Below, piece by piece: positions 1,074-62,825 of a stretch of DNA of 64,000 nucleotides. Every line of letters begins with the position of its first letter. Position 1 is the first letter of the stretch. Source of the stretch: Candidatus Altimarinota bacterium (lineage in GTDB: Bacteria > Patescibacteriota > Gracilibacteria > CAIRYL01); assembly GCA_965250085.1 (NCBI GenBank), contig OZ252287.1:800001-864000 (forward strand), read 5' to 3'. A model generated the notes under the pieces. The model saw nothing but the letters and a program-made list of their open reading frames with translations. It did no database searches and was not told the origin of the DNA. A program made the position numbers and the translations under genes.

Positions 1074-4000
1074 GTGGAAGTTCTCCCATCTCTCCTTAGT
1101 CGGCATGCGTTTCAAAGATTCCCTATAAAAGAGGGGTATTTTGAGAATCGCAGAGTGTTTCAGGCTGCAGAAGCAAGTCCTGAAGCAGCTTCAGTTGACT
1201 TGCCATCAGATCCAAAAGAAATACAAACACCATCAGAAATGGCGGAGTATCTGGAGAATAAGATGGATGAACTTGGTACCTTGGAAGCAAGGAAAAAATA
1301 TTTTCAAGATCTTGCCGCTAGTGAAGTACAGCATGTTTCCAAAGTTTTAGGTCCGGATGAATTGAGGAACACATTTGTCATCGCAGGTCTCTCTGAGATC
1401 AAAATCGATAAAGATGAGATACACCAGCTTGTGTCTGAGCAATCCACCAAGAATGTAAGTATCATCAGGTCTTTGATTATGAACGAATCTGGAGGACATC
1501 TCTTTGCCGTATCTCCAAAAGAGGCATTAGGTCTTGCACAAATGATGCCATCAAATTATGCAGATAGATGGGAATTTAATCCTTTTGTTCCAGAAACAGC
1601 AGTCCAGTACGCGGTAGAATATTTGAAAGAAGCGGAGAAAGACTTTCTTGCTTCTGAACTCAATCAAGCAAATCATCTCTTGGCAACAATAGCATCATAT
1701 AATGCTGGAGTATCAAGGGTGAAAGAAGCAATTGAGAACGCCCAGAAGAAAGGCGATATAAGTGGCTTTCGAAAACATCTTTCAAAAGAAACTCAAGAGT
1801 TTATAAAGGGTGTGCTTACTTTTAGTGATGTGTCCCTAGAAAACATGGAATTATCCGAAGAGGAGAAGAATGTTATGCAAGATGCAAGAGGATACTCGGG
1901 AGATATGCTCGAAAAGATTAAGGCTTGGTGGAGAGGTCTTGAGGATATCCCCGTGCCGGCGTGGATGGATCCAGAAAATTACCATCAGCAATGGCCTCTC
2001 AGAGAAAATTCAAAAAAAACAAAAGAATATCTCAAAAAACGATCAGAGGCAGGGAAGCTTGAAAAATTAAAAAGTAAAATGGATGTAGAGGAAGTGAGAG
2101 GCGAAACCAAGTCAGAGCTTGAGCAGGCAAGGGAGGCATTTGAGCAGCAAGAAAAGGTAAAAAGCACGGTAGAAATGAGCTGGCACAATGCTTATATGAA
2201 CTACCGTGACTCTCTTTTACCAGAAAAAAGAAGTGAATGGGTGGGAGGGAAGGATCCGCATCCAGAATATTTCGCCGGTAATCCCGACGAGCAATCTGTC
2301 TGGTTTGATACAGATGGCAGCCTTAATCATGGAGTATTAACAAGTGTACTGGATGAAATTATTCCTCCAAAAGGATCTATAGTGATAGATCTAAACGGAA
2401 CAAAACAATTCATTCCAGGTACTGCACTTCTGAGAATGTTGTATTTGAGTAATGAGGAAGCAAAAGATGGAAAGATACTTGAAGCGGAAGGAATTCAAAA
2501 AGGCTTCACCCATGAGACCGCTCTGGGGTGGGTTGAGGGATTAGAAAAATATATTTACGATCAGGAAAAGAAAAATGGAATCCAGGCGAATACACGAAGT
2601 GCTATGGAGGAGGCTAATATTGATTTGAATAAACTCAGTAATGGACTTGGGGACTTTGGCTCAGGACTTGTAGAAAAACTCATAGATGGAGATGCAACCG
2701 ACAAAGCAGAAGTTGCTGTCTTTGCCTTTGCACTCTGGAAGCTTTATAAGTCTTCTGCCGATTCAGTAAAAAATCTTATGTGGGGAGGACTGGGACTGTA
2801 TGTATTTGACAAAGTGCAGGCCGAACATACCGATCTCTTTGGGGGGCAGAGAATACTCGATATGATTGCCGGAGGGCAGATTGCTGATATCCGCGAAACG
2901 CCACTGGCCGCATTCCTCCATTCGGAAAAGAAAACAAGTGATATGGAAAAAAAAGCAGGACTGGTAATGCTGGAAGTTCCCATTGACTGCCTCTTAGATT
3001 GGGCAGGAAATGTGGAAGCAGCACCAGAGCCAGATCTGTTTGCTGATAGTGAACGACCAAAAGCTTTGTACTATGACACGATGCCCGGTATGCTCAAAGC
3101 AAATTTTCACCAGCTGTTTCCAGAATACAAAACACAGAATGACTTCCAAGCGGCAGAAACCATGTGGCAAGTGTTTGAAGCATTCCTCCTGAGTTCTGCC
3201 AAAAAAGCAAATGCCTTTGATAACAACATCGAAGTCACTCGCGCGCAGGGTCTGGATTACCTGAGGGCAAAATATACGGGCGACAAGATCTCTGGAGAAT
3301 TTGAACAATACAGAGACCACATTGGCCGACTGCATACACAATATGCTACAAAATCACCAACGTTCTCTCGGGTACTCGAACATGAAATCACCAGACGCGA
3401 AATTCAGAAAACTATTGCTGAAAATCAGACACTATTAGAAAAAGTTATTTCTTTTGGAAAAGAGCAGTGGATCAACTGGGTTCCTCTTTTAGAAGGCACG
3501 TGGGATTGGTCACTCGAACAATTGGGACTCGCCATGACATGGCTTGAAGACACCGGATTCCCAAAATCAGAAGAGTTTATCCGCAAACTCGCGGCAACTG
3601 GATGGCGCATCAGTAAAGATGGCTATAATCGTGTAGAAGGAGCTGTGACTGGATTTTTTGGAAAGGAGGAAGTGCAAGTGACTCTTCAAAAAATTGGAAA
3701 AGGTGCAAAATGGGCGATTATTGCTCCGTTTAAACTAGGAGCATGGACCATAGAAACAGTACAAGAAAAAATTCCAGATGCTCTTGAAAAGGTAGGCCAT
3801 GTGACAGCTTGGGCAGGGGGGATGTTTGAAGGTGCATTTGACCTTGGAGAGAGAGGTAATGAACTTATTTCTATATCAAGTGGAGAAGATATCCTTGCAG
3901 TTTTGAGAGACTCCGGAATGGCCAATGATGTAATGGCTTCATTTGGTCTAATACGAGAAAACGATCTTAAAAATTTATGTGATGCTATTTTTGATCAAAA

Positions 4001-4790
4001 AGGATCATGGATGAAAAAGATTTTACAACAAAAAATTATTCGTGAATCCGCATTACAAAGAGATTGGCCACTTGCAGAAAATCCAGAAAAAACGGGGAAA
4101 ATTCAAATTGAAGATGCGAACAATATGAAGCTTCCCAGAAAATTAATACCCCAGTTTTTCTTTTTGAATATTCCTGGATTGGGAGCTTTGCAATGGACAG
4201 CAGACAAAGGAACTGCAGGAGTTCAAGGATTGTTTGATGGTTTAAAAATGGTTGGAAAAGTGGCTTCCTTAGGAAGGAATTTTGCAGAAGGTCCACTTTG
4301 GAGTGGCATAGAGGCTGTGTCTCCCGACACATCTCCAAATATACAATCTATAGAAGCCATGTCATATATTGAAAATCTCATTGACGAGAAATTTGATAGT
4401 GCTTCTGATGAAGATCCTATTAGTGTTTGGAGAGCAAAACATGTCAACCAGCTCTTGATTCAAGTCCTAGAACAATTCTCAGGTCCACAGAGTGAAACAT
4501 CTACAGTTCAAGAACAATTCACGGCAAGACTTGTTCGTGAGAAGCCTTCGTGGGTTTTAAATGGACTTGGTAAAAGTCCATCAAAACAGAAGGTAAAAAA
4601 CAAAATACAAGACGCTCTACAAGAGATAGACAGTGATGATATTCTTGGACGTGATGAAGACCTCTCTGACAAATTAGATGATCTGGGTCTAATGCCTAGT
4701 GGAGGTGAAGAAGATGAAAACGGAAGTGGGAGTAATGGTGGTGGACGTGGATGGCTTCGCAAAACTCTTGATTGGTTACGGCGTGGATAA
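1074..4790 (+). CDS. Large protein with an N-terminal lytic transglycosylase (SLT) domain and a long uncharacterised helical remainder
   Basis: SLT motifs IMNESGG, ALGLAQMMP and ASYNAG in aa ~135-215; 1238-aa ORF. Confidence 0.75.
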   Translation: MEVLPSLLSRHAFQRFPIKEGYFENRRVFQAAEASPEAASVDLPSDPKEIQTPSEMAEYLENKMDELGTLEARKKYFQDLAASEVQHVSKVLGPDELRNTFVIAGLSEIKIDKDEIHQLVSEQSTKNVSIIRSLIMNESGGHLFAVSPKEALGLAQMMPSNYADRWEFNPFVPETAVQYAVEYLKEAEKDFLASELNQANHLLATIASYNAGVSRVKEAIENAQKKGDISGFRKHLSKETQEFIKGVLTFSDVSLENMELSEEEKNVMQDARGYSGDMLEKIKAWWRGLEDIPVPAWMDPENYHQQWPLRENSKKTKEYLKKRSEAGKLEKLKSKMDVEEVRGETKSELEQAREAFEQQEKVKSTVEMSWHNAYMNYRDSLLPEKRSEWVGGKDPHPEYFAGNPDEQSVWFDTDGSLNHGVLTSVLDEIIPPKGSIVIDLNGTKQFIPGTALLRMLYLSNEEAKDGKILEAEGIQKGFTHETALGWVEGLEKYIYDQEKKNGIQANTRSAMEEANIDLNKLSNGLGDFGSGLVEKLIDGDATDKAEVAVFAFALWKLYKSSADSVKNLMWGGLGLYVFDKVQAEHTDLFGGQRILDMIAGGQIADIRETPLAAFLHSEKKTSDMEKKAGLVMLEVPIDCLLDWAGNVEAAPEPDLFADSERPKALYYDTMPGMLKANFHQLFPEYKTQNDFQAAETMWQVFEAFLLSSAKKANAFDNNIEVTRAQGLDYLRAKYTGDKISGEFEQYRDHIGRLHTQYATKSPTFSRVLEHEITRREIQKTIAENQTLLEKVISFGKEQWINWVPLLEGTWDWSLEQLGLAMTWLEDTGFPKSEEFIRKLAATGWRISKDGYNRVEGAVTGFFGKEEVQVTLQKIGKGAKWAIIAPFKLGAWTIETVQEKIPDALEKVGHVTAWAGGMFEGAFDLGERGNELISISSGEDILAVLRDSGMANDVMASFGLIRENDLKNLCDAIFDQKGSWMKKILQQKIIRESALQRDWPLAENPEKTGKIQIEDANNMKLPRKLIPQFFFLNIPGLGALQWTADKGTAGVQGLFDGLKMVGKVASLGRNFAEGPLWSGIEAVSPDTSPNIQSIEAMSYIENLIDEKFDSASDEDPISVWRAKHVNQLLIQVLEQFSGPQSETSTVQEQFTARLVREKPSWVLNGLGKSPSKQKVKNKIQDALQEIDSDDILGRDEDLSDKLDDLGLMPSGGEEDENGSGSNGGGRGWLRKTLDWLRRG

Positions 4791-4825
4791 AGAACCTATT
4801 TTAAACCTCTTCCTAAAATATTTTT

Positions 4826-6232
4826 ATGACTGAAGACTGGAGAAATGACCAAGGCTTATGGGGAGAAAATACTCCTATATCGTCTGATGAAATTCTTGAC
4901 GAAGATACTTCTGAAGATCTCTCAGAGACATTCCTCAAGACCTCTTTCGGTGATCCTGATTATCCAAATCCAGATACCCCCCCTGTTCCAAGTGAGACCG
5001 CGGAAATTCCTGCTATGGATCCTGAAATTGAAGATATTTTAAACGATACCAGGCAAAAAATTTCGATTTTACAAGTAATAAAAAACTTTAAACCAGAGAT
5101 GTACGGAGCACTTACTTATTTGGGAGTAAATGCATTGGTTCCATTTGGAGGAGTTATTGCTGGTGTGCCACTTGGTCTCGCAGTATGGAACTATCAAAAG
5201 GCAAAAAAACGCGCGGAAGAAGCTGGAGACGACTCTGTTATGGGGATTCGAAAATTAACCAATACTCTTGTCTACAGTGCTATTGGGGCGGTAATTCCGG
5301 GAACAGATTGGATTTGGGGGGGGGCAGGAGGAGCAATACTGAGTACCGGCATTCAAGAGACAAAGCATCATTTGGGTTCTGCAAAGCATGAAAAAAATAT
5401 GCAAATAGTAAATGTGCAAAAAAGTTTTCCAAAAGCAATAAAGCATTTTACCAGCGACTCTGGCAGAACCGTGATCCAAATATTGGATGAATCCTTTCCT
5501 ATGCCTGATGGCATAGAGGAAAATGAAGAAATTGAGATTGTCTGGAGCCATATACTGCAACAAGCTGAAGGACAGGGTGTCTCCTCTCCTCATCTAGAAA
5601 AAAAACTACAAGAGATAGAAAAAAAATGTAAAAAGCTTGAACGATGGTGGACTACTATACCCCAAGAAAAACAATCAGAAATTGTCCATCCGCTCCTCCA
5701 AACGGACGAAGCAAAAGATTTTCTCTGGGAAAAACTCTCAGAAGAGAAAAAGAGGAGAATTATAGCCAGAGGACCTCGCATAGATAGTCCCGACAGTCTT
5801 GCGGTATGGAAAACTATTGCTTCTTCAAAAGGTACGAGTGATGCCCAAAAGCAAGAAGCTATGGGCGAACTACGAAAAATCTTAAATGGAGGAGGACGGA
5901 CAGAAGAAACAAGAGAAGTAACCGAAGGTGATTTTATGAGAAATTGCTCTGATGCAGTTGCACTCCAAACCTTTCAGAATAATCCAAGGTTAAAAGCTCT
6001 GTTCTTGACAGGGCAATTAGAAAATGTAATATTGGAAATCCATGATAACTCTGACAAGGAAGGTCTTAATAAAAATGGCTTCATGGATATTTTAAAACGA
6101 TATGGAATTAATATGGCAAGTGATGCTGTAAAGAATCCAGTGGGATTAAAAAACCCTATAACTTGGCTTATAAATCTAGGTGAAACTTTTTTGGAGGAGT
6201 GGCGAGATAAGGACAGTAGCAAAGGAGAATAA
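4826..6232 (+). CDS. Hypothetical protein with acidic N-terminus and Gly-rich hydrophobic helices
   Basis: 468-aa ORF, co-oriented and closely spaced with its neighbours. Confidence 0.7.
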   Translation: MTEDWRNDQGLWGENTPISSDEILDEDTSEDLSETFLKTSFGDPDYPNPDTPPVPSETAEIPAMDPEIEDILNDTRQKISILQVIKNFKPEMYGALTYLGVNALVPFGGVIAGVPLGLAVWNYQKAKKRAEEAGDDSVMGIRKLTNTLVYSAIGAVIPGTDWIWGGAGGAILSTGIQETKHHLGSAKHEKNMQIVNVQKSFPKAIKHFTSDSGRTVIQILDESFPMPDGIEENEEIEIVWSHILQQAEGQGVSSPHLEKKLQEIEKKCKKLERWWTTIPQEKQSEIVHPLLQTDEAKDFLWEKLSEEKKRRIIARGPRIDSPDSLAVWKTIASSKGTSDAQKQEAMGELRKILNGGGRTEETREVTEGDFMRNCSDAVALQTFQNNPRLKALFLTGQLENVILEIHDNSDKEGLNKNGFMDILKRYGINMASDAVKNPVGLKNPITWLINLGETFLEEWRDKDSSKGE

Positions 6233-6272
6233 TTTCTAATGATAAGTACCTTTTTCACATATAAAAAATACT

Positions 6273-7178
6273 ATGTCTTTCATTCAAAATTTTTCAATAA
6301 ATGGCTCTTCCCATCAAAAAATATTTCGAAACAGAAATAATATTCCTGCAGAAAATAATGTGCCACAGCCTACATCTTCAAATTTTCCTGACAGACTCCA
6401 CAACGTTTTTTCTGCTCCTCAGGGATTTTGGAGTACCGTCGCATGGCCGGTAGTAACTTCTTGGAAATTTTTGGGCTTCACAGCTGCAGAAGCTTTTGGG
6501 AAAATTCCATCCGCTGTTATGGGTACAGTTAATGCAACGCGTTGGAGCATTGGAAATATATTTGGCTCTCAAAAAACAGGGACGGAAGGGTTAGTGCCAA
6601 ATGTAGCCAAAAGAGGCTACAGGTTTATAAAGCGGGGCACGTGGGATGCCGCGGGAGCACCAGTAGTGAATGCTACAAGAGCAACAGCGTATAATGCTCT
6701 CAACTGGGCAGCACATGTCCCCGCAGATGTTCTGAAACTTCCCAAAGCCGCTTTTGGGGCGTTTGAGGGCATACGACTCAAGCTTATTCATATACTAGGT
6801 GATGTAGTTGAACCCGTATTTAAGGCGTTAAAAATGAATAAAATAATTGATTATACCGATCGAGTTGGGATACTCGCAAATGACTATGGCAAGGCTATTC
6901 TCGATCCATTTCGAAACACAGCATCCGCACTTGGAAGGGAGTATGACATTGCCTTCGACGCTGTACTTGATGCTCCTCGTGGGCTTACAACGGCATATAC
7001 AGGAGCTATACATGAACCCTGGACTTCAGGTGTCAATGACTCATTTAGAAAAGTCGCTAATGAGCCTGATATCTTTGCGGCAATGGGTGCCAGTAGAGAT
7101 ACAATGAATGGATGGCTGAAGACATTCCTTCGTCCAAAGCACCTCCGTGGAGGAGATATGGAAATGGCGGCAGTATAA
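6273..7178 (+). CDS. Hypothetical protein (amphipathic helical)
   Basis: 301-aa ORF, last of the co-oriented cluster. Confidence 0.7.
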   Translation: MSFIQNFSINGSSHQKIFRNRNNIPAENNVPQPTSSNFPDRLHNVFSAPQGFWSTVAWPVVTSWKFLGFTAAEAFGKIPSAVMGTVNATRWSIGNIFGSQKTGTEGLVPNVAKRGYRFIKRGTWDAAGAPVVNATRATAYNALNWAAHVPADVLKLPKAAFGAFEGIRLKLIHILGDVVEPVFKALKMNKIIDYTDRVGILANDYGKAILDPFRNTASALGREYDIAFDAVLDAPRGLTTAYTGAIHEPWTSGVNDSFRKVANEPDIFAAMGASRDTMNGWLKTFLRPKHLRGGDMEMAAV

Positions 7179-7188
7179 TGTATCATAG

Positions 7189-7352
7189 AAACCCACTCGG
7201 ACCTCCCTCCTGTCTGTTGACAGACATGGCTCAAGGGAGAAGCTTTTTTACTCAAATCGAACTATTGGCACAAAGTATAACCTTTAGCTCTTTTCTTTGC
7301 GTTTCTTTTAAGTTCTTTCACTCAAAACGGACTTTTTCCATATCTCATCACG
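7189..7352. repeat. Degenerate copy A of pheT 3' end plus downstream hairpin
   Basis: AAACCCAC..CCTCCCT..AAGGGA..TCAAATCGAAC..TTGGCAC..ATCTCATCACG is colinear with 8861-8995. Confidence 0.8.
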
Positions 7353-7503
7353 CCCCAAAGTGGCCCCTTTGGAGTTCTGCATCCGAGAAGGTTCTGTTTG
7401 GAGTAAAGAAATCATAAAAATAGAAATGGTACTTGCTTTCGCATCATTATTTATGATATGATTTTATCACACTATATTTTCATATTATTTTATAATATAT
7501 ACC

Positions 7504-7728
7504 ATGAGTACCCTCTCTGTCCCCCTCAATGCTGAATTGGAAGAAGCAATCGACATTCTTGTGAAGAATGGTGTAGGACCCAATAAAGCTGCTGTTGCCC
7601 GAAAGGCAATTCAAATTCTCGCAGAAGAGAACGCAATTGAAGCAGTGCTGCAGAGCGAAAGAGAAGTGCGGTCTGAAAAAATTCTCAAAGGAGACTTGAA
7701 GGAAATTTCCTGCGCTCTTTCTTCTTAA
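7504..7728 (+). CDS. Ribbon-helix-helix antitoxin
   Basis: 74 aa with RHH pattern STLSVPLNAELEEAIDILV..NKAAVARKAI; immediately upstream of the toxin. Confidence 0.75.
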   Translation: MSTLSVPLNAELEEAIDILVKNGVGPNKAAVARKAIQILAEENAIEAVLQSEREVRSEKILKGDLKEISCALSS

Positions 7729-7730
7729 AA

Positions 7731-7994
7731 ATGATTTCGATCTGCTATACACCCACATTTATACGACAGTATAAAAAATTGGAGCCTGCCTTACAGGACG
7801 AAGTGTATGAAAAGATTCAGGTCTTTCAAAATGACCCTGCTCATTCTTCTCTCAAAACACATAAACTCAAAGGAAGACTTAAAGGGCGATGGAGTTTTTC
7901 GGTAAATTATAAAACACGTATTGTGTTTATGTATTCTTTGAAAAAAACAGCTGTCTTGCTGGCTGTCGGAGACCATGATGTGTATAAGAAGTAG
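7731..7994 (+). CDS. RelE-superfamily (YafQ/HigB-like) mRNA interferase toxin
   Basis: 87 aa basic; YTPTFIRQYKKL, HKLKGRLKGRWSFSVNYKTRIVF, VGDHDVY. Confidence 0.85.
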   Translation: MISICYTPTFIRQYKKLEPALQDEVYEKIQVFQNDPAHSSLKTHKLKGRLKGRWSFSVNYKTRIVFMYSLKKTAVLLAVGDHDVYKK

Positions 7995-8009
7995 ATTTAC
8001 ATATCATAT

Positions 8010-8170
8010 AAACCCACCCAGCCTCCCTTTCCAAGGGATGAATTTTATTTTTCAAATCGAACGGTTGGCACAAAGTGCAACCACAAGGTGGGAACTTCTC
8101 GTCCCCTTTGGCTCTCCTCTATATTTTTTTGCTTTCTATTCAAAACGGACTTTTCCCCATATCTCATCAC
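8010..8170. repeat. Degenerate copy B of pheT 3' end plus downstream hairpin
   Basis: TTTTATTTTTTCAAATCGAACGGTTGGCAC vs pheT TTTTATTTCTCAAATCGAACGGTTGCAC; the minus strand still encodes TVRFEK-stop. Confidence 0.85.
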
Positions 8171-8292
8171 CAGAAAAAAAGGGGGTATACTTTTTCTATT
8201 ACTGCCATATACGCTTTGGAGCGATGCTGTATTGCAAATGATCAAATATTACAACCTGCAAAACTCAAACAGATCATGAGAGACACCTGCTA

Positions 8293-8562
8293 TTATTGAA
8301 AAAACACTTTGTATGCCCTTGAGCGATGTCTAATGCCGAAGATTTGAACTGTTCTTCCTTGAATTATATAGAGCACACGATAGTTCCCAACCCTTAAGCT
8401 TCTTGCGCCCGAAAGAGTATACTTAAGGGGCTTCCCAAATACTTTTGGATTTCTAGTAAGCTTTTTATCAATAACGGCTAGTATTATTTTTGCATTTGTT
8501 TTCGAAAGCCTTGGGATATCAGTTTTTCCTACAGCTCTTGCGTATTTAATTTTATATTTCAT
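8293..8562 (-). CDS. RelE/ParE-family toxin
   Basis: GKPLKYTLSGARSLRVGNYRVLY..IRHRSRAY; ATGA overlap with the antitoxin stop. Confidence 0.85.
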   Translation of the reverse strand: MKYKIKYARAVGKTDIPRLSKTNAKIILAVIDKKLTRNPKVFGKPLKYTLSGARSLRVGNYRVLYIIQGRTVQIFGIRHRSRAYKVFFQ

Positions 8563-8780
8563 GACCAAGCTTCTTCATGAGAGATAAACCCTTTGTTGTT
8601 TGCTATTCTTTCATCAACCAACTGGCTAAAATATATATCCTCTTGCAGTTCAATAGCTTCTTTGAGCAGCTCCACAGCTTTTGTAGAGAGAGGCATCTCA
8701 TCTTTTTTTGCGAGCTGGATAAGAGCTTCTTCCATCCATTTTGGAAGACTGAGATTTAGACGTTTTTTAGTAGTAGGCAT
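8559..8780 (-). CDS. Antitoxin (RHH-type, acidic C-terminus)
   Basis: MPTTKKRLNLSL... ending FISHEEAWS; translationally coupled to the toxin. Confidence 0.8.
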   Translation of the reverse strand: MPTTKKRLNLSLPKWMEEALIQLAKKDEMPLSTKAVELLKEAIELQEDIYFSQLVDERIANNKGFISHEEAWS

Positions 8781-8796
8781 AGAAACTTAATAAAAG

Positions 8797-8835
8797 TGTA
8801 ACACCATTGTAACACCTTTTCCCAGGAAATATCAA
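8797..8835 (-). promoter_or_regulatory. TA promoter with direct-repeat operator
   Basis: Minus strand TTGATA-18 bp-TACAAT; TGTAACACC repeated at 8797 and 8808, overlapping the -10. Confidence 0.5.
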
Positions 8836-8923
8836 GATATTTTTGTGCAATCCACCACACAAACCCACCTCGCCTTCGGATTCGTCTGAGCTCATCGTCG
8901 AAGACCTTTTTAAGGGAAAGATT

Positions 8924-11320
8924 TTATTTCTCAAATCGAACGGTTGCACCTCGTTTTTTCAGTTCCTTCAGAATTTTTGTCCAGATCTCATCACGTTCTG
9001 TATCAGTGAGAGTTCTATCAGAAGCACGAAACTCAAAGGAAAGAGTGACGGATTTTTGCCCTTCAGGAATTCCCTCGCCCTCCCAGACTTCCATAACTTC
9101 TGAGTGTGCAATACGATCGTCAAGCTTTGTAAGTCCTTGCACAAGATTCTGTACCAGCATTTTTCGATCACAGAGAACAGATCGATCGAATGGAATTTCT
9201 TGGAATCGAGGCAGTGCCTTCATTTTTTGTGCCTTGTGCTTCATCACAGCAAGTGGTGAGAGCTGTAAGGAAAGAAATGATGTTTCTGTCGGAAGATCAA
9301 ATTCTTTGGAAACGCTTGGATGAAGCTGAGAAATGCTGATTCCACTTTTTCCAACCTTAAGAACGGCACTTTTTCCCGGATGTTCAAAGGAAAGTGGGAC
9401 TTGTGCTTCTTCGACTCGCGCTTTCCATCCATGAGCCGCACAGAGGACTTGGGCAAGTGATTTGGCAGCAAGAAATCCTTCTCCGACAAGAAGAGCCGTG
9501 ATGCGATGGTCTTCTTTTTTTTTGTTATTTCCAAAATAAAACACATTCCCGCTTTCAAAAATTCTGAAATTCTCCCGATACCTTCTGTTCTTTTCTGCCG
9601 TTTCCAGAAGGCGAGGAAGAAGGGCGGGTCTCATAAGACTCAGGTCTTCGGAAATTGGATTCTGAAGCGTGACAAAAGGAGCAAAGAGGTCACACTGTGA
9701 TCTTTTGAGCAGTTCTCCTCCCAAGAAATTCAGAGTGACAATTTCATGGCATTCATTACGAGTGAGCACTTGGGAAATACTTTTTTCCAGTTGTCTCTGG
9801 CGCTCAGGAGAAAACATCCGCACTTCTATCGCTGGAGATGTTTCTGGAATAGTGTTCAGTCCATAAATACGCATGACCTCTTCCACAACATCTTCTGGAA
9901 TACAAATATCTTTCTGTCTCCATTCGGGAATAGTGACGGCATAAGAATTTTTTTTGACTTCTACTCCAAATCCAAGATTGGTAAGAATTTTTTTGATTTC
10001 GGCATCTTTAATTTTTACACCGGCGATGCGATCTATGAGTTCAATAGGGACAGCGACTATTCGTTTTTTTTCTTGTATGTTCTTCTGATCCATAATTTCT
10101 GATGCGATCTGAGCATCAGGGAAAATATCAAGAAAAAGTTCAAGTGCTCTCATGAGTCCTTGTTCGGCCATAACAGGTGGAACAGATTTTTCATAGATAC
10201 CAGAGGCATCAGTACGAGGTCCTACATTCAGAGCAGTTCGGCGAATTCGTACCGGATCATAAACAGGAAAATGGAGAAGCAGATTTGTAGTCTCCTTTTG
10301 TACTGCAGAACTTTCTCCTCCCATTACTCCACACAGATCAAAAATACCGCTTTTTTCATCTTCAAACACTATTGTCTCTGGAGTGAGTTTGCGTGTTTCA
10401 CCATCGAGTGTCTTCATCGTCTCTCCTTTTTTGGCAAGCCTCATCTTCCACTGTTTCCCCACAAGACCTGCATCAAAGGCATGATTGGGGGCGCCATATT
10501 CCAGCATGACATAATTGGTAATATCGACAATGGCGGAAATAGGGCGGATATCACACGCATTGAGGCGTTTTTGCATCCATTCTGGAGAAGAAGCGTTGCC
10601 GTCTACTCCAGTAAGATATACCGCCAGGTAGCGGGGGCAAATGTCTGCATCTTTGGGAATGGTGATCTGAATGGGAAGTTTTGTTTTCGGAATTTTCTTT
10701 TGTAGTGGCACAAAATTTTGTGCCCCTTTTGTTTTTCTGAGTTTTCCCAATCCACATGCCGCTACCTCCCTTGCAAAACCAATATAGGAAAACAAATCCG
10801 GACGATTGGTAATAGTCGTGTTTTCAATATCGAGTACTGTATCTCCTCCAAATTGGTAGTCAAAAAAGCTTTTCCCGACAGGAGCATCTGTTCCGAGCAA
10901 ATAAATCTCTTTATTCTCAGAAGCTCCCATGTGCAGCTCATCAGGAGAGCAGATCATACCGTCGGATTCTTCTCCGCGAATTTTTATTTTCTTAATTTTG
11001 ATCTCACCCCAGAGATTAGCCCCTGGAAGAGCTACGGGGACACATTCTCCTTCTTTGAGATTGCTTCCTCCACACACAATATGGTGTATTTTGCCATTTC
11101 CCACATCCACTTGGGCACACCAGAGCGTGTCGGCATTTGAATGTTTAGCGACTTTCATAATTTTTCCTACTACGACATTTTGCAATGCTTCCTTCTCCTC
11201 ATTCTTCATTATGATTTCATCAACTTCCGCCGCACGCTCGGTAAGAACTTCTGCAATGTGGCTCGGGTCCGACTCGGTAAAATCTACAAAGTCCGAAATC
11301 CATTCAAGTGATATTTTCAT
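8924..11320 (-). CDS. pheT: Phenylalanine--tRNA ligase beta subunit
   Basis: MKISLEWI start after GGAGGA; IVCGGSN, GMICS, TNRPDL, VDITNYVMLEYG, PEDVVEEVMRIYG and C-terminal FDX-ACB domain. Confidence 0.97.
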   Translation of the reverse strand: MKISLEWISDFVDFTESDPSHIAEVLTERAAEVDEIIMKNEEKEALQNVVVGKIMKVAKHSNADTLWCAQVDVGNGKIHHIVCGGSNLKEGECVPVALPGANLWGEIKIKKIKIRGEESDGMICSPDELHMGASENKEIYLLGTDAPVGKSFFDYQFGGDTVLDIENTTITNRPDLFSYIGFAREVAACGLGKLRKTKGAQNFVPLQKKIPKTKLPIQITIPKDADICPRYLAVYLTGVDGNASSPEWMQKRLNACDIRPISAIVDITNYVMLEYGAPNHAFDAGLVGKQWKMRLAKKGETMKTLDGETRKLTPETIVFEDEKSGIFDLCGVMGGESSAVQKETTNLLLHFPVYDPVRIRRTALNVGPRTDASGIYEKSVPPVMAEQGLMRALELFLDIFPDAQIASEIMDQKNIQEKKRIVAVPIELIDRIAGVKIKDAEIKKILTNLGFGVEVKKNSYAVTIPEWRQKDICIPEDVVEEVMRIYGLNTIPETSPAIEVRMFSPERQRQLEKSISQVLTRNECHEIVTLNFLGGELLKRSQCDLFAPFVTLQNPISEDLSLMRPALLPRLLETAEKNRRYRENFRIFESGNVFYFGNNKKKEDHRITALLVGEGFLAAKSLAQVLCAAHGWKARVEEAQVPLSFEHPGKSAVLKVGKSGISISQLHPSVSKEFDLPTETSFLSLQLSPLAVMKHKAQKMKALPRFQEIPFDRSVLCDRKMLVQNLVQGLTKLDDRIAHSEVMEVWEGEGIPEGQKSVTLSFEFRASDRTLTDTERDEIWTKILKELKKRGATVRFEK

Positions 11321-11444
11321 TCCTCCAAAAGAAAAATTCCTGCAAATTATAGAGGGAAAGAGCAAAACTCCCAAGAGAATACGGGAATGTTGAATGATAT
11401 CGTTGGCGATATTGTGTATCATTGTATCAGTGATCTTGAGATAC

Positions 11445-27425: not shown

Positions 27426-27500
27426 AAATGAGAAGAATGTGCCGCCTTGCATTTTTTAGACAATTTCCGTAGTGTTGATGCAAATATTTCCCTTTTCCCC

Positions 27501-28079
27501 ATGAAAAAGATACTTCCTCTCGGGCTTATAAGCATATTGCTTGCCTTTATAATCTTTCCTGTGTCTCCTGTATTTGCCGAGTGCGCTGATAATGATGGAG
27601 ATCGATACTATAGCTGTGATAATATTGATGATGAGCTTCCTCCCTTTGCAAAAGGCAGTGAAGAGCTTCGTTGTGACCAAGCAACGATTGATGAAAATTC
27701 TGATGATTATGATTTGGTCATTTCTCCAGAAATTACTTCAATAGCTGGAAATAAGGTGCACCCTGGTGCTATAGAACCTCCCAATAGTCAGGTAGATCTC
27801 AACTGTGATGGAAAAATTACTGGATATCTTCCTGAAGGTCGCGAGGGCGGTACTGACTTTTTTGAACTAATGGAAAAGGTCATTGTGCTTATTGGGCAGG
27901 TCGCAGTGTTTATTTCAGTAGGAGCTTTGGTCTATGGAGGGATAATGTTTGCTACCGCCTCTGGTGAAGAACGCAAGCTTCAAAAAGCAAAAAAAACTAT
28001 CGTCGGAGCAGTGGTGGGACTTATTATTGGTCTCATTGCATGGAATATTGTTGGATTTGTAACTGGAATATTTGGATAG
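27501..28079 (+). CDS. CPR-type pilin (TrbC/VirB2-like C-terminus) with MopE-related metal-binding motif
   Basis: Signal peptide; CADNDGDRY..VHPGAIE..DLNCDG; YGGIMFATASGEERKLQKAKKTIVGAVVGLII. Confidence 0.7.
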   Translation: MKKILPLGLISILLAFIIFPVSPVFAECADNDGDRYYSCDNIDDELPPFAKGSEELRCDQATIDENSDDYDLVISPEITSIAGNKVHPGAIEPPNSQVDLNCDGKITGYLPEGREGGTDFFELMEKVIVLIGQVAVFISVGALVYGGIMFATASGEERKLQKAKKTIVGAVVGLIIGLIAWNIVGFVTGIFG

Positions 28080-32399: not shown

Positions 32400-34109
32400 T
32401 TAAGAGACTTCTGCTAAGTAGCACTCTTCGCAGTATACCGTCTTTGATCTCGTAGGGGAACCTGTCCGCCGCAATCCCACAATTCGGGACGAAGGCGGGT
32501 ATGTGGTCTGTATCCCTTTCTGACACTTGTCACACGTCCCTGAGTAAAGCTTTCTAGAATTTCTGAGAACCATTCTTCTTTTATGTCGTGCGTCTGGATG
32601 TAAATGAGGAACTGGCAAGTTCATTTTTCTATAGAATTCTAATTCTGATTTTTGGATTTTAAAAAGCTTTCCTGTTTTTTCACATTCGATTGCCCAGTTC
32701 AAGATATTATCGGGGATATTGACTATACTCTCTGGAAGTTTTTGAGCAGGGATCTTTTGAGTGACATCTGAGAAATTTGTCTCTTCTTCCTCTTTCCATT
32801 TCCATCCTTTCTGGAGAACTTCTTCCTGGGTAAGAGGAAAATATTCATGAGCAGTCGTTTCATTGTATCCAAATGGTGAAAGATGCTGAGGAAAAAATTC
32901 TCCCCATTCCCTTGTTTGTTTCATATGTTCTATAATCTTCGGCACCAGCTTTTTATATTCTTCCTTCGTGTACTGTTTGTTCAGAATGCAGTGATCCTTA
33001 TGCCGCATACCAATACAACCGAAAAGATATGATGCACCTTGCGGGCAAATTTGAGAATAATAAATATCATGTGATTCCCACACATTTTCACAGAAAAAAG
33101 TACGATAAGCATTATACCCCCCCACAGAACACTCGTAAGATTCATCTATTCCCATTCCAAAATAGGTAACATCATAATTTCCAAAACTTACCTTATCGCC
33201 CTTTTTTAAATCAGAGCAATATCGGGAATTTTCCAAATATTCGCAGTCAAAACAAGAAAAGCAGTTTTTTGTTTGCACCAGATAATCACCCGTAGAATTT
33301 TCTGTGTTTTTTTCCTGCATCCATTTCATGAAGTGTTCTGAACGGAATTTTTGAAAGCCTTGCCAAATACCCTGAAGAGATTTCTCCTTTTTGATTTTCG
33401 AGACCTCCTCTCTATATTTTTCCGGAGAGAGTTTTTTGTTAAAGAAATGATGACTCTTGTTTCGCAAATTGACGCACCCAAAGCAATTTTTACAGCCAAT
33501 AAGATTTTCGGAAAAATGACATTCATCTGAATTATGAGAATCAACAAGAAACGTGCAAAAAGAACAATTCGTACAATTGAGACATTCATAGCATCCCTGA
33601 CAGTCATATATTTTAAATGAGTCCACTGAGTCAAAACACCTATTGACTCCTTTTCCATACAGGCATTGTTCAGATTCATCAGAATTTACAAGTAAATAAC
33701 AATTTTTAAGCCATCCGGCATGATTGCAATAGTCAGAATTTTCCATAGTGGAACTGAGCACTGCGAGAGAGAAATGAGGCACTTGGTTGCAAAGATCATT
33801 GAATTGATCAAAAAAAGAACGGGTAAAATCAAAATCTCTCCCATATTCAAGCGGATCCCATTTATCACTCCACCAGCAATCTGGGCAATACACTGGAAAC
33901 TGAACTTTTGCATCGTACATAGAAATTATTCTCTTTTTGCAAAGGTCACATGTTCGGTGATACATCTTCCTCTCATTTCGCCACACCATTCGCCGTTGCA
34001 TGCGACACGATGGACAATGAGTTGGCTCTGGAACGTTTGTTTTTCTATAAAACTCCTGATCTTCAGGAAAGATCTGAAAATCTTCTGAGCATTGGACACA
34101 CTTTTTCAT
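32400..34109 (-). CDS. Cys-rich zinc-ribbon/repeat protein, paralog 2
   Basis: Same architecture as 17904-19577. Confidence 0.85.
   Translation of the reverse strand: MKKCVQCSEDFQIFPEDQEFYRKTNVPEPTHCPSCRMQRRMVWRNERKMYHRTCDLCKKRIISMYDAKVQFPVYCPDCWWSDKWDPLEYGRDFDFTRSFFDQFNDLCNQVPHFSLAVLSSTMENSDYCNHAGWLKNCYLLVNSDESEQCLYGKGVNRCFDSVDSFKIYDCQGCYECLNCTNCSFCTFLVDSHNSDECHFSENLIGCKNCFGCVNLRNKSHHFFNKKLSPEKYREEVSKIKKEKSLQGIWQGFQKFRSEHFMKWMQEKNTENSTGDYLVQTKNCFSCFDCEYLENSRYCSDLKKGDKVSFGNYDVTYFGMGIDESYECSVGGYNAYRTFFCENVWESHDIYYSQICPQGASYLFGCIGMRHKDHCILNKQYTKEEYKKLVPKIIEHMKQTREWGEFFPQHLSPFGYNETTAHEYFPLTQEEVLQKGWKWKEEEETNFSDVTQKIPAQKLPESIVNIPDNILNWAIECEKTGKLFKIQKSELEFYRKMNLPVPHLHPDARHKRRMVLRNSRKLYSGTCDKCQKGIQTTYPPSSRIVGLRRTGSPTRSKTVYCEECYLAEVS
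32461..32499. repeat. 39-bp REP-like palindrome inserted in-frame in paralog 2
   Basis: CCTGTCCGCCGCAATCCCACAATTCGGGACGAAGGCGGG adds PPSSRIVGLRRTG between conserved TTY and SP. Confidence 0.8.
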
Positions 34110-34157
34110 ATGAGTACTGTACCTCTATTAATATACTTCTTTCAAATAACACTCTTC

Positions 34158-34182
34158 GTCCTTCGACTTCGCTCAGGATGAA
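34158..34182. repeat. REP-like element between paralogs
   Basis: GTCCTTCGACTTCGCTCAGGATGAA, related to the element at 34658-34705. Confidence 0.6.
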
Positions 34183-35913
34183 TCAGTATACCTCTGCAAG
34201 ATAACACTCTTCGCAGTATATCGTCTCAGGTCTTTCTGGGGAATAGGTGGTTTGTATCGATTTTTGACACTTATCACATTTTCTTTCCCAAATTTTTGCA
34301 GGATTTCTCAGAGCAAGTCTTTTGTGATGCCGTATATCTGGATGAAGATGCGGAATAGGGAGGTCCATTTTTCTATAAAATTCGAGTTCGCCTTTTTGAA
34401 TCTTAAAAAATCTTCCTGATTCTTCGCATTCTATCGCCCAGTTCAGAATATCATCTGGGATATCTGCTATACTCTCTGGAAGTTTTTGAGCGGGAATATT
34501 TTTAGTGACATCTGAGAAGCCTGGCTCTTCTTCCTCTTTCCATTTCCATCCTTTCTGGAGAACTTCTTCCTTGGTAAGAGGAAAATATTCATGGGCAATA
34601 GTTTCGTTATACGCAAACGGCGATATGGATATCGGGAAATACTCTCCCCATTCCCCTGCCTGCCCTGAGTTTGCTTGCAGTGAGCTTGTCGAACCTGTCG
34701 AATGGATCTCCTGCATATGCTTTGCTATTTTTGCAGCGAGTTGATGGTATTCTTCTTTGGAATATTGTTTATTCAGAATACAATATTTTTGATTTTTGAG
34801 TCCTACGCAGGCAAAAAGATCATGACTGTGATGACAGTCTCGAGAGTAATAGATATTGTGGCAATACCATGTAAAAAAACAAGCGATACAGTCTTCTAGT
34901 CCTACAGCCGAACACACATTATAGCAAAATTTATTTCCATCTGGAGCACAAAAATTACAATCGTAACTTCTTACTGTTCTGGGCACAAATCCCATATATT
35001 TCGAATCTTCACACTCATTACAATCAAAACATTCAAGGCAATTTTTTGAGTTATAAATGCTTTCGCCTGTACAATTTTCACTATTATAAATATGTGAGGA
35101 CACATGAGGTAATTCCGCTTTGAGCTCATTAAGTCCGTTTTTTAAAGAGAATATCTTCTTTTGAGTAAGATTCACATACTCTTGTGCAAATCGTTTATAG
35201 TCTTGTTTTGAATATTGGGTATTAAAAACACAGTATTGCTTATTTCTCAGTCCAAAGCAGCCAATACAATTTTTACATGCTGAACAATCCTCCACCATAA
35301 GACACTCGCTGCAATTGCGACAATTGGTAAAGAATTTGCATCCATGGCACTTTTCTGAAGAAACTCCTTCGTAACTGAGTTCCGAAGAATATACTGCTAA
35401 CCCATCAAATACATCCTTTGAATCGACGATAAATTTTCCGTTCATACAGTCTTCATTATTTCCCGCTCCGAATATGAGATAGCAGTTTTTTTGATTGAGG
35501 GCAAAATTGGTGTAATAGCTATTTTCTACATTCGTCGTATAGAGAGAGGCATGTGGCACGTCTGCATAGAGTTCTTGTATCTGCTGGGTTGTTGTTTTTG
35601 AAAAATCAAAATTACGACCATAATCAAGTCCGCTCCATTCATCTCCCCACCACACCTCTTGATCATATACTATATATGGAGTATCTGGAGAATAAATGGA
35701 AATGATTGATCTTCCTGTAGCATCACACTTTCGTTGATAAAGTTTCCGTTCATTGCGAAAGGCTATTCTGTTTTGATATCGACATTCGGGGCATTTTTTG
35801 GGTGATAAAATATTAAATTTTTGACCAGCAAACACCGGAGAGATCTTGTCATAAAACTTCAGATCTTCTTTCGTGACCTCAAAATCTGCTGAGCACTGTG
35901 TACAGGTTTTCAT
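34183..35913 (-). CDS. Cys-rich zinc-ribbon/repeat protein, paralog 3
   Basis: Same architecture as paralogs 1 and 2. Confidence 0.85.
   Translation of the reverse strand: MKTCTQCSADFEVTKEDLKFYDKISPVFAGQKFNILSPKKCPECRYQNRIAFRNERKLYQRKCDATGRSIISIYSPDTPYIVYDQEVWWGDEWSGLDYGRNFDFSKTTTQQIQELYADVPHASLYTTNVENSYYTNFALNQKNCYLIFGAGNNEDCMNGKFIVDSKDVFDGLAVYSSELSYEGVSSEKCHGCKFFTNCRNCSECLMVEDCSACKNCIGCFGLRNKQYCVFNTQYSKQDYKRFAQEYVNLTQKKIFSLKNGLNELKAELPHVSSHIYNSENCTGESIYNSKNCLECFDCNECEDSKYMGFVPRTVRSYDCNFCAPDGNKFCYNVCSAVGLEDCIACFFTWYCHNIYYSRDCHHSHDLFACVGLKNQKYCILNKQYSKEEYHQLAAKIAKHMQEIHSTGSTSSLQANSGQAGEWGEYFPISISPFAYNETIAHEYFPLTKEEVLQKGWKWKEEEEPGFSDVTKNIPAQKLPESIADIPDDILNWAIECEESGRFFKIQKGELEFYRKMDLPIPHLHPDIRHHKRLALRNPAKIWERKCDKCQKSIQTTYSPERPETIYCEECYLAEVY
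34658..34705. repeat. Nested 24+24-bp REP-like insertion, in-frame in paralog 3
   Basis: GCCTGCCCTGAG[TTTGCTTGCAGTGAGCTTGTCGAA]CCTGTCGAATGG adds 16 aa relative to the paralogs. Confidence 0.75.
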
Positions 35914-35930
35914 AGGATGAGAGTATCAAA

Positions 35931-36017
35931 GAAGCTCCTCCTTGAAAAGGAAGGTTGGGTGGGTTTATTTTTAAGAAAGGCCCAAAAAACCCTTAATCCC
36001 TCTTTGCCAGGGGGGAA
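35931..36017. repeat. Paired CCCT..AAGGG hairpin repeats
   Basis: CTCCTCCTTGAAAAGGAAGGTTGGGTGGGTTT and CCCTCTTTGCCAGGGGG; same family as 8010, 39589, 62752 and 63575. Confidence 0.65.
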
Positions 36018-36020
36018 AGA

Positions 36021-37673: not shown

Positions 37674-37739
37674 GATTGGTTGCTTATGAAGCAGAGTATC
37701 AAAAGGATGTCCTTTCTGTCACTACGACCCTGAACTTGT

Positions 37740-39488: not shown

Positions 39489-39588
39489 GTAATGTGTGGA
39501 TGAAATTGACAAAAGTGCTGCGAATATATAATGTATATAGAGAGTGGCAAATACCACCATATGGTGATAATTACCACCACTTATTTGT

Positions 39589-62751: not shown

Positions 62752-62825
62752 AAACCCACCTAACCTCCCTTGGTAAGGGAGGAATAAATAACTTCCCCCT
62801 TGAAAAGGGGGATTGAGGGGGTTTA
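62752..62825. repeat. Paired hairpin repeats between convergent genes
   Basis: AAACCCACCTAACCTCCCTTGGTAAGGGAGG..CCCCCTTGAAAAGGGGGATTGAGGGGGTTT. Confidence 0.7.

What the first reader, a model, noticed from the sequence alone, without database searches (positions are those of the whole stretch)
7189..8995. Integrase-free tandem cassette array: triplicated pheT 3' end with a toxin-antitoxin pair in each interval
The last ~70 nt of pheT plus its downstream AAACCCAC..AAGGGA hairpin (8861-8995) recur at 8010-8170 and 7189-7352, spaced about 850 and 820 bp. Copy B still encodes the PheT C-terminus TVRFEK-stop. Copy A, the farthest from pheT, matches less well at the TVRFEK end but still reads RDEIW. 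Each interval contains exactly one RelE-type TA operon, and the two operons are in opposite orientations. The copies share sequence absent from pheT (GGCACAAAGT.YAACC and TCAAAACGGACTTTT); in copy B this forms a hairpin GGTTGGCAC-AAA-GTGCAACC. This resembles successive site-specific capture of minimal cassettes that replace the 3' end of an essential gene, yet no recombinase is in the window.
Basis: partly seen in the sequence, partly recalled or inferred. Interest (0 to 1): 0.78.

Follow-up and report, generated by a model that had tools for sequence, protein, structure and literature searches.

The report
Toxin-antitoxin cassettes stacked behind pheT
Two small toxin-antitoxin gene pairs were inserted one after the other behind the essential gene pheT of a Peregrinibacteria-type bacterium, each leaving a decaying spare copy of the gene's end; this is a compact example of a known way that addiction genes enter genomes, not a new kind of machine.

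Summary
The last part of pheT occurs three times on the minus strand, at 8856-8995 (the real gene end), 8005-8171 and 7184-7352. One intact RelE/ParE-type toxin-antitoxin operon lies in each interval. The pheT-coding blocks and the spacer shared by copies A and B occur nowhere else in the 1.37 Mb genome. The AAACCCAC..AAGGGA hairpin, however, belongs to a genome-wide REP/terminator-like family with 58 relaxed hits. The closest relative has an empty site, with pheT stop and the convergent gene's stop 4 nt apart. A second genus (G004) has an AbiEi/AbiEii pair flanked by a pheT-end copy that differs from the live copy mainly by synonymous changes. None of 60 further class genomes shows this. No recombinase lies in the window. 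The genome has no integron integrase and the region has no attC-type cores. Public contigs bridge the array without variants. Best reading: a fossil array made by Campbell-type insertions of DNA that carried its own pheT end. It resembles accretion of integrase-less CIMEs, or the 'insertion with long target duplication' described for restriction-modification modules. The enzyme responsible is unknown. Interest is moderate: a new member of a known kind.

The parts
8924..11422 (-). pheT (phenylalanyl-tRNA synthetase beta chain), intact, 832 aa
   Evidence: ORF. Pfam B3_4, tRNA_synthFbeta, B5, tRNA_bind and FDX-ACB, all above cut-off.
8856..8995 (-). Copy C: the live pheT 3' end (RDEIW...TVRFEK-stop at 8924-8926) plus a degenerate REP-like hairpin ending in GTGGGTTT
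8806..8835 (-). Promoter-like site (TTGATA-18-TACAAT with TG) ahead of the cassette 2 antitoxin
   Evidence: This is a consensus match only.
8559..8780 (-). Cassette 2 antitoxin, 73 aa, RHH/RelB-like (weak matches)
   Evidence: Pfam RHH_5 E 0.0059. NCBIfam RelB-like E 0.001, below cut-off. Overlaps the toxin start by 10 nt.
8293..8568 (-). Cassette 2 toxin, 91 aa, ParE/RelE superfamily
   Evidence: Pfam ParE_toxin 31.8 bits against a 23-bit cut-off.
8005..8171 (-). Copy B: pseudo pheT end. RDEIW block, 94-nt spacer shared with A, TVRFEK-stop block, REP-like hairpin (8010-8038).
7731..7994 (+). Cassette 1 toxin, 87 aa, RelE/ParE-like
   Evidence: Pfam ParE-like_toxin 26.8 bits against 28. NCBIfam RelE_StbE 24.7 bits against 27.9. 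One paralogue in the genome, at 653670-653987.
7504..7728 (+). Cassette 1 antitoxin, 74 aa, weak ParD-like match
   Evidence: NCBIfam TIGR02606 E 0.006, below cut-off. Ends 2 nt before the toxin start.
7184..7352 (-). Copy A: the most decayed pseudo pheT end. RDEIW block, 75-nt spacer with a remnant of LKELKKR, ..VRFE-stop block, REP-like hairpin.
6273..7178 (+). Convergent 301-aa gene that marks the far side of the original site. In the closest relative its orthologue abuts pheT.
   Evidence: 30% identity, E 6e-31 to the 326-aa ORF of G001..

Best explanation
This is a fossil tandem array made by at least two Campbell-type insertions behind pheT.

Each incoming DNA carried one self-contained type II toxin-antitoxin operon and a stretch homologous to the pheT 3' end and terminator. 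One reciprocal crossover in that stretch put the cargo downstream of pheT. It left pheT whole and left a second, unselected copy of the gene end on the far side of the cargo. The second event used the already decayed distal copy, or a circle carrying one like it, which is why copies A and B share a non-pheT spacer that the live copy C lacks. The spare copies decay. The toxin-antitoxin pairs stay intact because losing them is penalised (addiction).

Shown: the triplication, the cargo, the empty site in a relative, the second case in another genus, and the absence of a recombinase in cis.

Inferred: the circular intermediate and the single crossover.

Open: whether the crossover was made by a site-specific integrase since lost or acting in trans, or by the host's homologous recombination. 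I put about equal weight on each.
For: 1. Three collinear copies with sharp common limits, starting at (C/G)GTGATGAG and ending after GTGGGTTT. The pheT-derived blocks are unique to this locus.
2. G001, the closest relative (58% PheT identity over the C-terminal query), has pheT stop and the stop of the orthologous convergent gene 4 nt apart.
3. G004, another genus, has pheT, then AbiEi-like plus AbiEii (PF08843, E 4.7e-24), then a second pheT end. Its changed codons against the live copy are 11 synonymous, 1 stop-to-stop and 6 non-synonymous, 3 of the 6 at block edges. That pattern fits two ends that each served as coding sequence, so one came in with the foreign DNA.
4. A and B share a spacer (58 of 94 aligned; local alignment score reached by 0 of 2000 shuffles). 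Each matches C's spacer poorly (32 of 75 and 32 of 94).
5. The cassettes are slightly AT-richer (GC 0.38 and 0.365) than pheT (0.43) and the 301-aa neighbour (0.44).
6. These two pairs account for two of the three RelE/ParE-type toxins found in the genome.
7. One 18,219-nt public contig in each of 4 runs, all from one sample, spans 6900-9300 with no difference.
Against: - No integrase, excisionase or circular form was found, and no closer relative or population variant could be obtained.
- The G000 copies are too diverged (about 65% overall, with indels) to locate a crossover. Blocks 1 and 2 are about equally alike in all three pairs, so I withdrew an earlier idea that B is a hybrid of A and C.
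- The displaced copies are interrupted by short unique inserts, in G000 and in G004 (80 and 105 nt, unique in that genome). The model does not predict these.
- G000 and G004 share no non-coding cassette sequence, so there is no evidence for one element family.
- Only 1 of 80 relatives examined shows the feature.
- The synonymous-change argument rests on about 36 codons in one genome.
Confidence: 0.55

Rival explanations
1. Insertion with long target duplication in the strict sense. The resident 140-170 nt were duplicated during a break-and-repair insertion of the addiction module. No homology was imported and no recombinase was involved, as proposed for restriction-modification modules.
For: The array meets the published operational criteria: a complete addiction module, an insert under 20 kb, a repeat over 30 bp, no mobility gene, and an empty site in another genome (criteria read in PMC2853133; data). 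If the second event hit the decayed distal copy, A and B would naturally be alike along their whole length.
Against: In G004 the two copies differ mainly at synonymous sites. That is not expected if one is a neutral decaying duplicate of the other. The published cases have repeats of 89-100% identity (Tables 2 and 3 as quoted), whereas here the copies are far more diverged. The empty-site comparison here is between genera, not within a species.
Confidence: 0.15
2. An active, integron-like capture site. The A/B-type unit, with its conserved blocks and the hairpin of copy B, is a recombination site recognised by a recombinase encoded elsewhere in the genome. Minimal toxin-antitoxin cassettes still move in and out.
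For: Two invariant cores are present in all three copies (GTGATGAGAT, GTTCGATTTGA). A and B share cassette-side sequence. The genome encodes 3 tyrosine and 8 serine recombinase hits elsewhere. The cargo type is typical of chromosomal integrons (recalled).
Against: - No integron integrase: best 87 bits against a 265-bit cut-off, on the Xer-like gene.
- No attC-type core pair in 7000-9100 and no Rfam hit.
- The hairpin of copy B is not kept in copy A (sequences).
- The A/B motifs occur nowhere else in the genome or in viral contigs.
- No variant or joint in public contigs.
- The cassettes face opposite ways, and cassette 2 has a promoter-like site of its own.
Confidence: 0.08
3. No horizontal insertion at all. 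The pattern comes from local rearrangement, gene conversion among REP-like terminators, or misassembly.
For: The hairpin part of each copy belongs to a dispersed REP-like family that often flanks single genes and can mimic 'cassettes'. Examples are G000 72388/73296 and the 96-nt repeat of G007, with 18 hits in that genome.
Against: The pheT-coding blocks are not part of the dispersed family and are unique to this locus. The two cargos are different operons in opposite orientation. An independent assembly of 4 runs bridges the whole array. A relative has an empty site.
Confidence: 0.05

Closest known systems
Tandem accretion of CIMEs (cis-mobilizable elements) at the 3' end of a target gene, ICESt1-type. 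Review PMC5704250; I read passages only.
   Same: [quoted passage not shown] Several units are stacked at one site. The target gene stays intact.
   Different: No related full-length element or integrase is known for this site. The units are only 0.82-0.85 kb and hold nothing but a toxin-antitoxin operon. The repeats are long (140-170 nt), diverged and interrupted.
Insertion with long target duplication of restriction-modification modules. Furuta, Abe and Kobayashi 2010, PMC2853133; I read passages and the Discussion. That paper cites Nobusato et al. 2000, Gene 259:99, which I did not read.
   Same: An addiction module is inserted with a long direct repeat of the target, without any mobility gene, next to or overlapping gene ends. 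The mechanism is unknown. The paper states a proposed cycle of entry, amplification and release through the repeats.
   Different: Described for restriction-modification systems. In the two papers I opened that hold both this term and 'toxin-antitoxin', the term appears only in the reference list. The repeats there are near-identical and the comparisons are within species. In G004 the synonymous pattern points to imported homology.
Integron cassette arrays, including arrays without a nearby integrase (CALIN). Recalled; no paper read for this.
   Same: A row of small single-operon units separated by similar repeats, with toxin-antitoxin cargo.
   Different: No IntI. No attC core pair. Opposite orientations, and a promoter-like site of its own ahead of cassette 2. 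The repeat is derived from the neighbouring essential gene.
e14 and phage 21 at icd of E. coli, where the element brings a substitute 3' end of the gene. Recalled; no paper read.
   Same: The gene's 3' end is duplicated, the gene stays functional, and the two ends differ mostly at synonymous sites (as in G004).
   Different: Those elements are prophages with an integrase. Here only a toxin-antitoxin pair remains.
Xer-dependent elements (IMEX) and pdif modules of Acinetobacter plasmids. Recalled; no paper read.
   Same: Small modules, often toxin-antitoxin pairs, that lack their own recombinase and can stack at one site.
   Different: No dif-like site was recognised in the copies. The locus is not at a GC-skew turning point. 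pdif modules are bounded by inverted sites, not by direct repeats of a gene end.

Membership tests
Integron / CALIN cassette array | Integron integrase (IntI) in the genome or nearby | tested here: not met
   TIGR02249 best 87 bits against a 265-bit cut-off, on the Xer-like gene at 73.4 kb. No tyrosine recombinase in the window.
Integron / CALIN cassette array | attC sites with an inverse-core and core pair (RYYYAAC ... GTTRRRY; consensus recalled) | tested here: not met
   No such pair 40-130 nt apart on either strand of 7000-9100. The dedicated attC covariance model was not available.
Integron / CALIN cassette array | Mostly promoterless cassettes in one orientation | tested here: not met
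   The two operons face opposite ways. A promoter-like site lies ahead of cassette 2.
CIME / site-specific accretion | [quoted passage not shown] | tested here: met
CIME / site-specific accretion | A related autonomous element with an integrase of the same site specificity | tested here: not met
   None next to pheT in 20 relatives' loci or in 60 further class genomes, which were screened for pheT-end repeats only. Nothing in viral contigs.
CIME / site-specific accretion | Excision or integration at a defined core | not testable with these tools
   Only contigs were available for the runs. No joints were seen, which is no evidence of absence.
Insertion with long target duplication (criteria of PMC2853133) | Complete addiction module inside, insert under 20 kb, repeat over 30 bp, no mobility gene | tested here: met
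   Two-gene operons. Units of 821 and 851 bp, repeats of about 140-170 nt. No mobility gene. The criteria were written for restriction-modification genes.
Insertion with long target duplication (criteria of PMC2853133) | Both repeats align with a single copy in an empty-site genome of the same species | tested here: inconclusive
   The empty site is known only in another genus (G001). No same-species genome was found.
Type II toxin-antitoxin (RelE/ParE superfamily) | Toxin matches a curated family. A small upstream DNA-binding antitoxin gene is tightly coupled to it. | tested here: met
   The cassette 2 toxin matches PF05016 above cut-off. The cassette 1 toxin falls just below cut-offs in Pfam and NCBIfam. 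The antitoxins give only weak RHH/ParD/RelB-like matches. The gene pairs overlap or abut. Activity was not tested.
IMEX / pdif module | Xer-binding dif-like sites at the borders | tested here: inconclusive
   The host dif is unknown. A loose look for dif-like words gave only weak AT-rich hits, none in the copies. GC skew gives no terminus near the locus.

The most novel reading that the evidence does not exclude
Classical toxin-antitoxin operons in these small-genome bacteria may spread as minimal, recombinase-free mobile units. The long direct repeats of the host gene end would let the unit loop out as a circle, and after DNA uptake let it re-enter the same conserved site in other cells by the host's own recombination. 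This would be the 'virus-like life cycle' proposed for restriction-modification modules, extended to toxin-antitoxin pairs and anchored on an essential gene.
Probability: 0.15. Interest if true: 0.65.

Novelty: new member of a known kind. Interest (0 to 1): 0.38.

Why it matters
Mobile elements of Peregrinibacteria and other small-genome uncultured bacteria are poorly known. This locus shows in very compact form how addiction modules settle next to an essential gene without breaking it, and how they outlast whatever carried them. If the repeats still mediate exit and re-entry, toxin-antitoxin pairs would themselves be minimal mobile elements. As it stands, the array is an old scar of a known kind of event. 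It is useful as an annotated example and as a caution that a genome-wide REP-like terminator family can mimic cassette borders.

Tried and rejected
- Closer relatives. The metagenome scan with the PheT C-terminus gave 13 loci, all weak partial matches covering at most 42 of the 258 query residues (12 at 38% identity, 1 at 54% over 24 residues). The genome-contig scan returned only the same family (10 loci). The order holds only 20 genomes.
- Cassettes elsewhere. Viral-contig scans with both toxins and with two A/B motifs found nothing. The word-index protein search with the cassette 2 toxin found only the protein itself (1 of 1 candidates). That search is limited to relatives sharing exact 5-residue words.
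- Reads. The 4 runs come from one sample and one study, probably the source. They are kept as contigs only and show no joints or variants, which is no evidence of absence.
- 'B is a hybrid of A and C'. Dropped after segment-wise identities.
- 'Single genes flanked by direct repeats are common insertion scars in this genome'. Rejected for 72388/73296, where the repeats are copies of the dispersed REP-like pair. The same applies to G007, where the repeat has 18 hits in the genome. The other candidates (120751, 192739, 1106832, 1192950) were not resolved.
- Other toxin-antitoxin loci. The third RelE/ParE locus of G000 (653362-653987) showed no obvious local duplication on reading the sequence. 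The three ParE-like loci of G004 gave no direct repeat in a self-BLAST of each locus.
- Inserts in the G004 pseudo-copy as small transposable elements. They are unique in that genome.
- Xer/dif idea. No usable dif candidate, and no GC-skew turning point near the locus.
- Rfam. Nothing near significance in 6800-9300.
- Literature. I found no paper that names pheT as an attachment site of such elements. 'pheT' with 'attB' as whole words gave 6 papers. One was relevant: a Streptococcus pyogenes prophage between pheT and the next gene (PMC8115907, one passage read). 'Peregrinibacteria' with 'toxin-antitoxin' gave 4 papers, none relevant by title or abstract start.

Full report
WHAT IS THERE. pheT lies on the minus strand at 8924-11422. 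It encodes 832 aa with all five expected Pfam domains and ends ...RDEIWTKILKELKKRGATVRFEK-stop. Read in the pheT sense, three collinear copies of its end follow each other: C (8995 down to 8856, the live end), B (8171 down to 8005) and A (7352 down to 7184). The repeat finder puts all three in register, with spacings of 819-851 bp for the two end families (D2, D3) and 800 and 879 bp for the middle family (D1). The alignment shows long invariant runs.

Each copy consists of four parts:
- block 1, (C/G)GTGATGAGAT(A/C)TGG, which encodes RDEIW;
- a spacer;
- block 2, GTTCGATTTGA plus the stop region, which encodes VRFE(K)-stop;
- a hairpin ending in GTGGGTTT.

NOT CHANCE, BUT NOT ALL LOCUS-SPECIFIC. 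The window is genome 800001-864000 of a single 1,368,807-bp contig with 40% GC. GTTCGATTTGA occurs 3 times in the genome, all three here and on one strand, against 0.96 expected. GATGAGATMTGG occurs 4 times, 3 of them here, against 0.32 expected. The two motifs shared only by A and B occur twice each, both here.

The hairpin part is different. The 33-mer of copy B has 10 other near-matches in the genome. A relaxed pattern finds 58 sites, mostly just after gene ends, often as inverted pairs with a sister motif. It is a genome-wide REP/terminator-like family. In copy B it scores as a terminator on the plus strand, just after cassette 1. That holds for this part only.

ANATOMY OF THE COPIES. Blocks 1 and 2 are about equally alike in all pairs: 13-14 of 15 and 20-21 of 24. 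The spacer is 39 nt in C, where it is native coding sequence, but 94 nt in B and 75 nt in A. A and B align with each other at 58 of 94, and none of 2000 shuffles reached their local alignment score. Each matches C's spacer poorly (32 of 75 and 32 of 94). So A and B share an origin that C does not.

A still holds a decayed LKELKKR stretch (local alignment, 41 of 2000 shuffles reached the score; it translates as VKELKR). From block 1, copy B reads GDEIWGKVRFE-stop and copy A reads RDEIWKKSVLSERT-stop. Neither copy could replace the live end, which has the long form seen in all relatives. The hairpin GGTTGCAC/GTGCCAACC of copy B (fold) is not kept in A.

CARGO. Interval C-B holds a 73-aa RHH/RelB-like antitoxin (8559-8780) and a 91-aa ParE-family toxin (8293-8568; PF05016, 31.8 bits against a 23-bit cut-off). 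Both run in the pheT direction, behind a promoter-like site. Interval B-A holds a 74-aa weakly ParD-like antitoxin (7504-7728) and an 87-aa RelE/ParE-like toxin (7731-7994). The toxin scores just under the curated cut-offs. This pair is on the other strand. All four genes are open. There is no room for another gene. GC is 0.38 and 0.365, against 0.43 for pheT. An in-genome jackhmmer found only one further toxin of this kind, at 653670-653987, and reading the sequence around it showed no obvious local duplication.

RELATIVES. Record titles place the family among Peregrinibacteria/Peribacteria-type genomes. PheT was found in 39 of 41 genomes, counting G000. I fetched the pheT-downstream stretch from 20 relatives; some are cut short by contig ends.
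- G001, the closest (58% identity), has pheT stop and the stop of the convergent gene 4 nt apart. That gene is the orthologue of window 6273-7178 (30% identity, E 6e-31). This is an empty site.
- G004, another genus, has pheT, a 191-aa AbiEi-like gene (NCBIfam E 1.5e-10, below cut-off) and a 256-aa AbiEii toxin (PF08843, E 4.7e-24). About 1.6-1.9 kb past the stop lies a second pheT end in three collinear pieces, split by inserts of 80 and 105 nt that are unique in that genome. Codon by codon, the changed codons are 11 synonymous, 1 stop-to-stop and 6 non-synonymous, 3 of those at block edges. That is the pattern of two sequences that both evolved as coding ends.
- G008 shows a mirror image. 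The 5' end of the next gene is present three times, with two inserted genes of unknown function between the copies. That gene's N-terminus matches an ABC-transporter gene of G003.
- G007 has a 96-nt repeat that is a dispersed family with 18 hits in its genome, so it does not count.
- In a wider sample PheT was found in 140 of 161 class genomes. I fetched 60 more downstream stretches of up to 3.5 kb. None has a second pheT coding end. One has a 68% repeat of mostly post-stop sequence.
- In total, 1 of 80 relatives shares the feature.
- G000 and G004 share no non-coding cassette sequence.

RECOMBINASES AND OTHER TESTS. The genome has 3 tyrosine-recombinase hits: one Xer-like at 73.4 kb, and two hits of equal score (75.8 bits) at 334 and 611 kb; the 334-kb copy is a 407-aa integrase with an arm DNA-binding domain. 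It has 8 serine-recombinase hits, the nearest at 785.8 and 781.3 kb, about 21-26 kb from the array. It has 3 weak Y1-transposase hits. None lies in the window, and a Pfam scan of the window's ORFs found no recombinase or transposase. No integron integrase is present. The region has no attC-type core pair and no Rfam match. GC skew gives no replication landmark near the locus. Four public runs from one sample and one study, probably the source, each hold an 18,219-nt contig that spans 6900-9300 without a difference. No alternative joint was reported, but contigs hide rare variants.

HOW IT MOST LIKELY AROSE. Four observations fit insertion by a single crossover between the chromosomal pheT end and a homologous stretch on incoming circular DNA, that is, Campbell-type integration:
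- the empty site in G001;
- the intact live gene end;
- distal copies that could once have coded;
- the mostly synonymous divergence in G004.

The fact that A and B share a derived spacer is most simply explained if the second event used the already decayed distal copy, or a circle that had looped out of such an array. Only toxin-antitoxin operons remain, and this fits their resistance to deletion in a streamlined genome (established property of addiction modules; inference here).

I cannot tell whether the crossover was made by a site-specific integrase, since lost or acting in trans, or by host homologous recombination. Two invariant 10-11-nt cores and sharp borders favour an integrase. The lack of any integrase at this site in 80 relatives favours host recombination, as does the match of each pseudo-end to its own host's pheT. 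The short unique inserts inside the displaced copies of both genomes are unexplained.

COMPARISON WITH WHAT IS KNOWN. Two described phenomena are closest. The first is accretion of integrase-less CIMEs at the att site that includes the end of a target gene (PMC5704250, passages read). The second is 'insertion with long target duplication' of restriction-modification modules. These carry no other mobile genes, have repeats of tens to hundreds of bp, occur mostly in naturally competent species, and have no known mechanism (PMC2853133, passages and Discussion read). Seven papers hold both that term and 'toxin-antitoxin'. In the two I opened it appears only in the reference list, so I found no description of it for classical toxin-antitoxin pairs. 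My search covers open-access texts only. Integron arrays, e14/icd and Xer-dependent modules are resemblances recalled from memory. The integron tests failed.

VERDICT. The reading as an integron-like capture system is not supported. The locus is a compact, old example of a known kind of event at a target, pheT, for which I found no earlier report of this kind of insertion, in a little-studied lineage.

LIMITS. The crossover point and the enzyme remain inferred.

Noticed in passing
window 8010-8038 and 62752-62824; genome-wide in G000 (for example 72393-72421, 374251-374326, 753872-753982): A dispersed REP/terminator-like family (AAACCCACCYAGCC + TCCCTT-loop-AAGGGA). It is often paired in inverted orientation with a sister motif (AAACCCCCTCAATCCCCCTT..AAGGGGG), like REP doublets. 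A relaxed pattern finds 58 hits, mostly just after gene ends. Only weak Y1-transposase hits exist in the genome.
   Followed up: partly
L050 (G008), about +43 to +2371 nt past the pheT stop: The 5' end of the next gene is present three times (76-85% identity over 109-241 nt). Its N-terminus matches an ABC-transporter gene of G003. Two inserted genes without Pfam matches (319 and 224 aa) lie between the copies. This mirrors the pheT array.
   Followed up: partly
L043 (G004), about +1586 to +1886 nt past the pheT stop (original coordinates about 3750-4090): The displaced pheT end is split by two inserts of 80 and 105 nt, both unique in that genome. The 105-nt insert keeps the reading frame open (35 codons, by my reading of the sequence). 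The 80-nt insert is flanked by a repeated ACGGATG. Unexplained.
   Followed up: partly
G000 334476-334967 and 610869-611360 (L002, L003), outside the window: Two tyrosine-integrase genes with identical scores lie on opposite strands, 276 kb apart. The L002 copy (407 aa) carries an arm DNA-binding domain. Their islands and attachment sites were not examined.
   Followed up: no
G000 113545-114195, 472061-472711, 520694-521344, outside the window: A 216-aa ORF with the same first 50 residues occurs at three places. It is probably an insertion-sequence transposase. The family was not tested.
   Followed up: no
window 32400-39560: Four neighbouring ORFs of 550-606 aa on the minus strand have no Pfam match. 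DNA-level repeats of 72-78% between three of them point to a tandem paralogue family (genome 832503-836574).
   Followed up: no
window 1074-7178: Three genes sit beside the array: a 1238-aa protein with a lytic transglycosylase (SLT) domain, followed by 468-aa and 301-aa proteins without Pfam matches. The 301-aa gene has an orthologue at the same place in G001. The upstream ORFs there (865 and at least 504 aa) look like counterparts but were not compared. A type IV secretion pilin-like ORF lies at 27447-28079.
   Followed up: no
G000 922867-931436 (L068), outside the window: A 9-kb stretch is dense in 40-540-nt direct repeats (78-100% identity) between small ORFs. The best, still weak, Y1-transposase hit of the genome lies at 928532-928753. 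This may be another repeat-bounded gene array.
   Followed up: no
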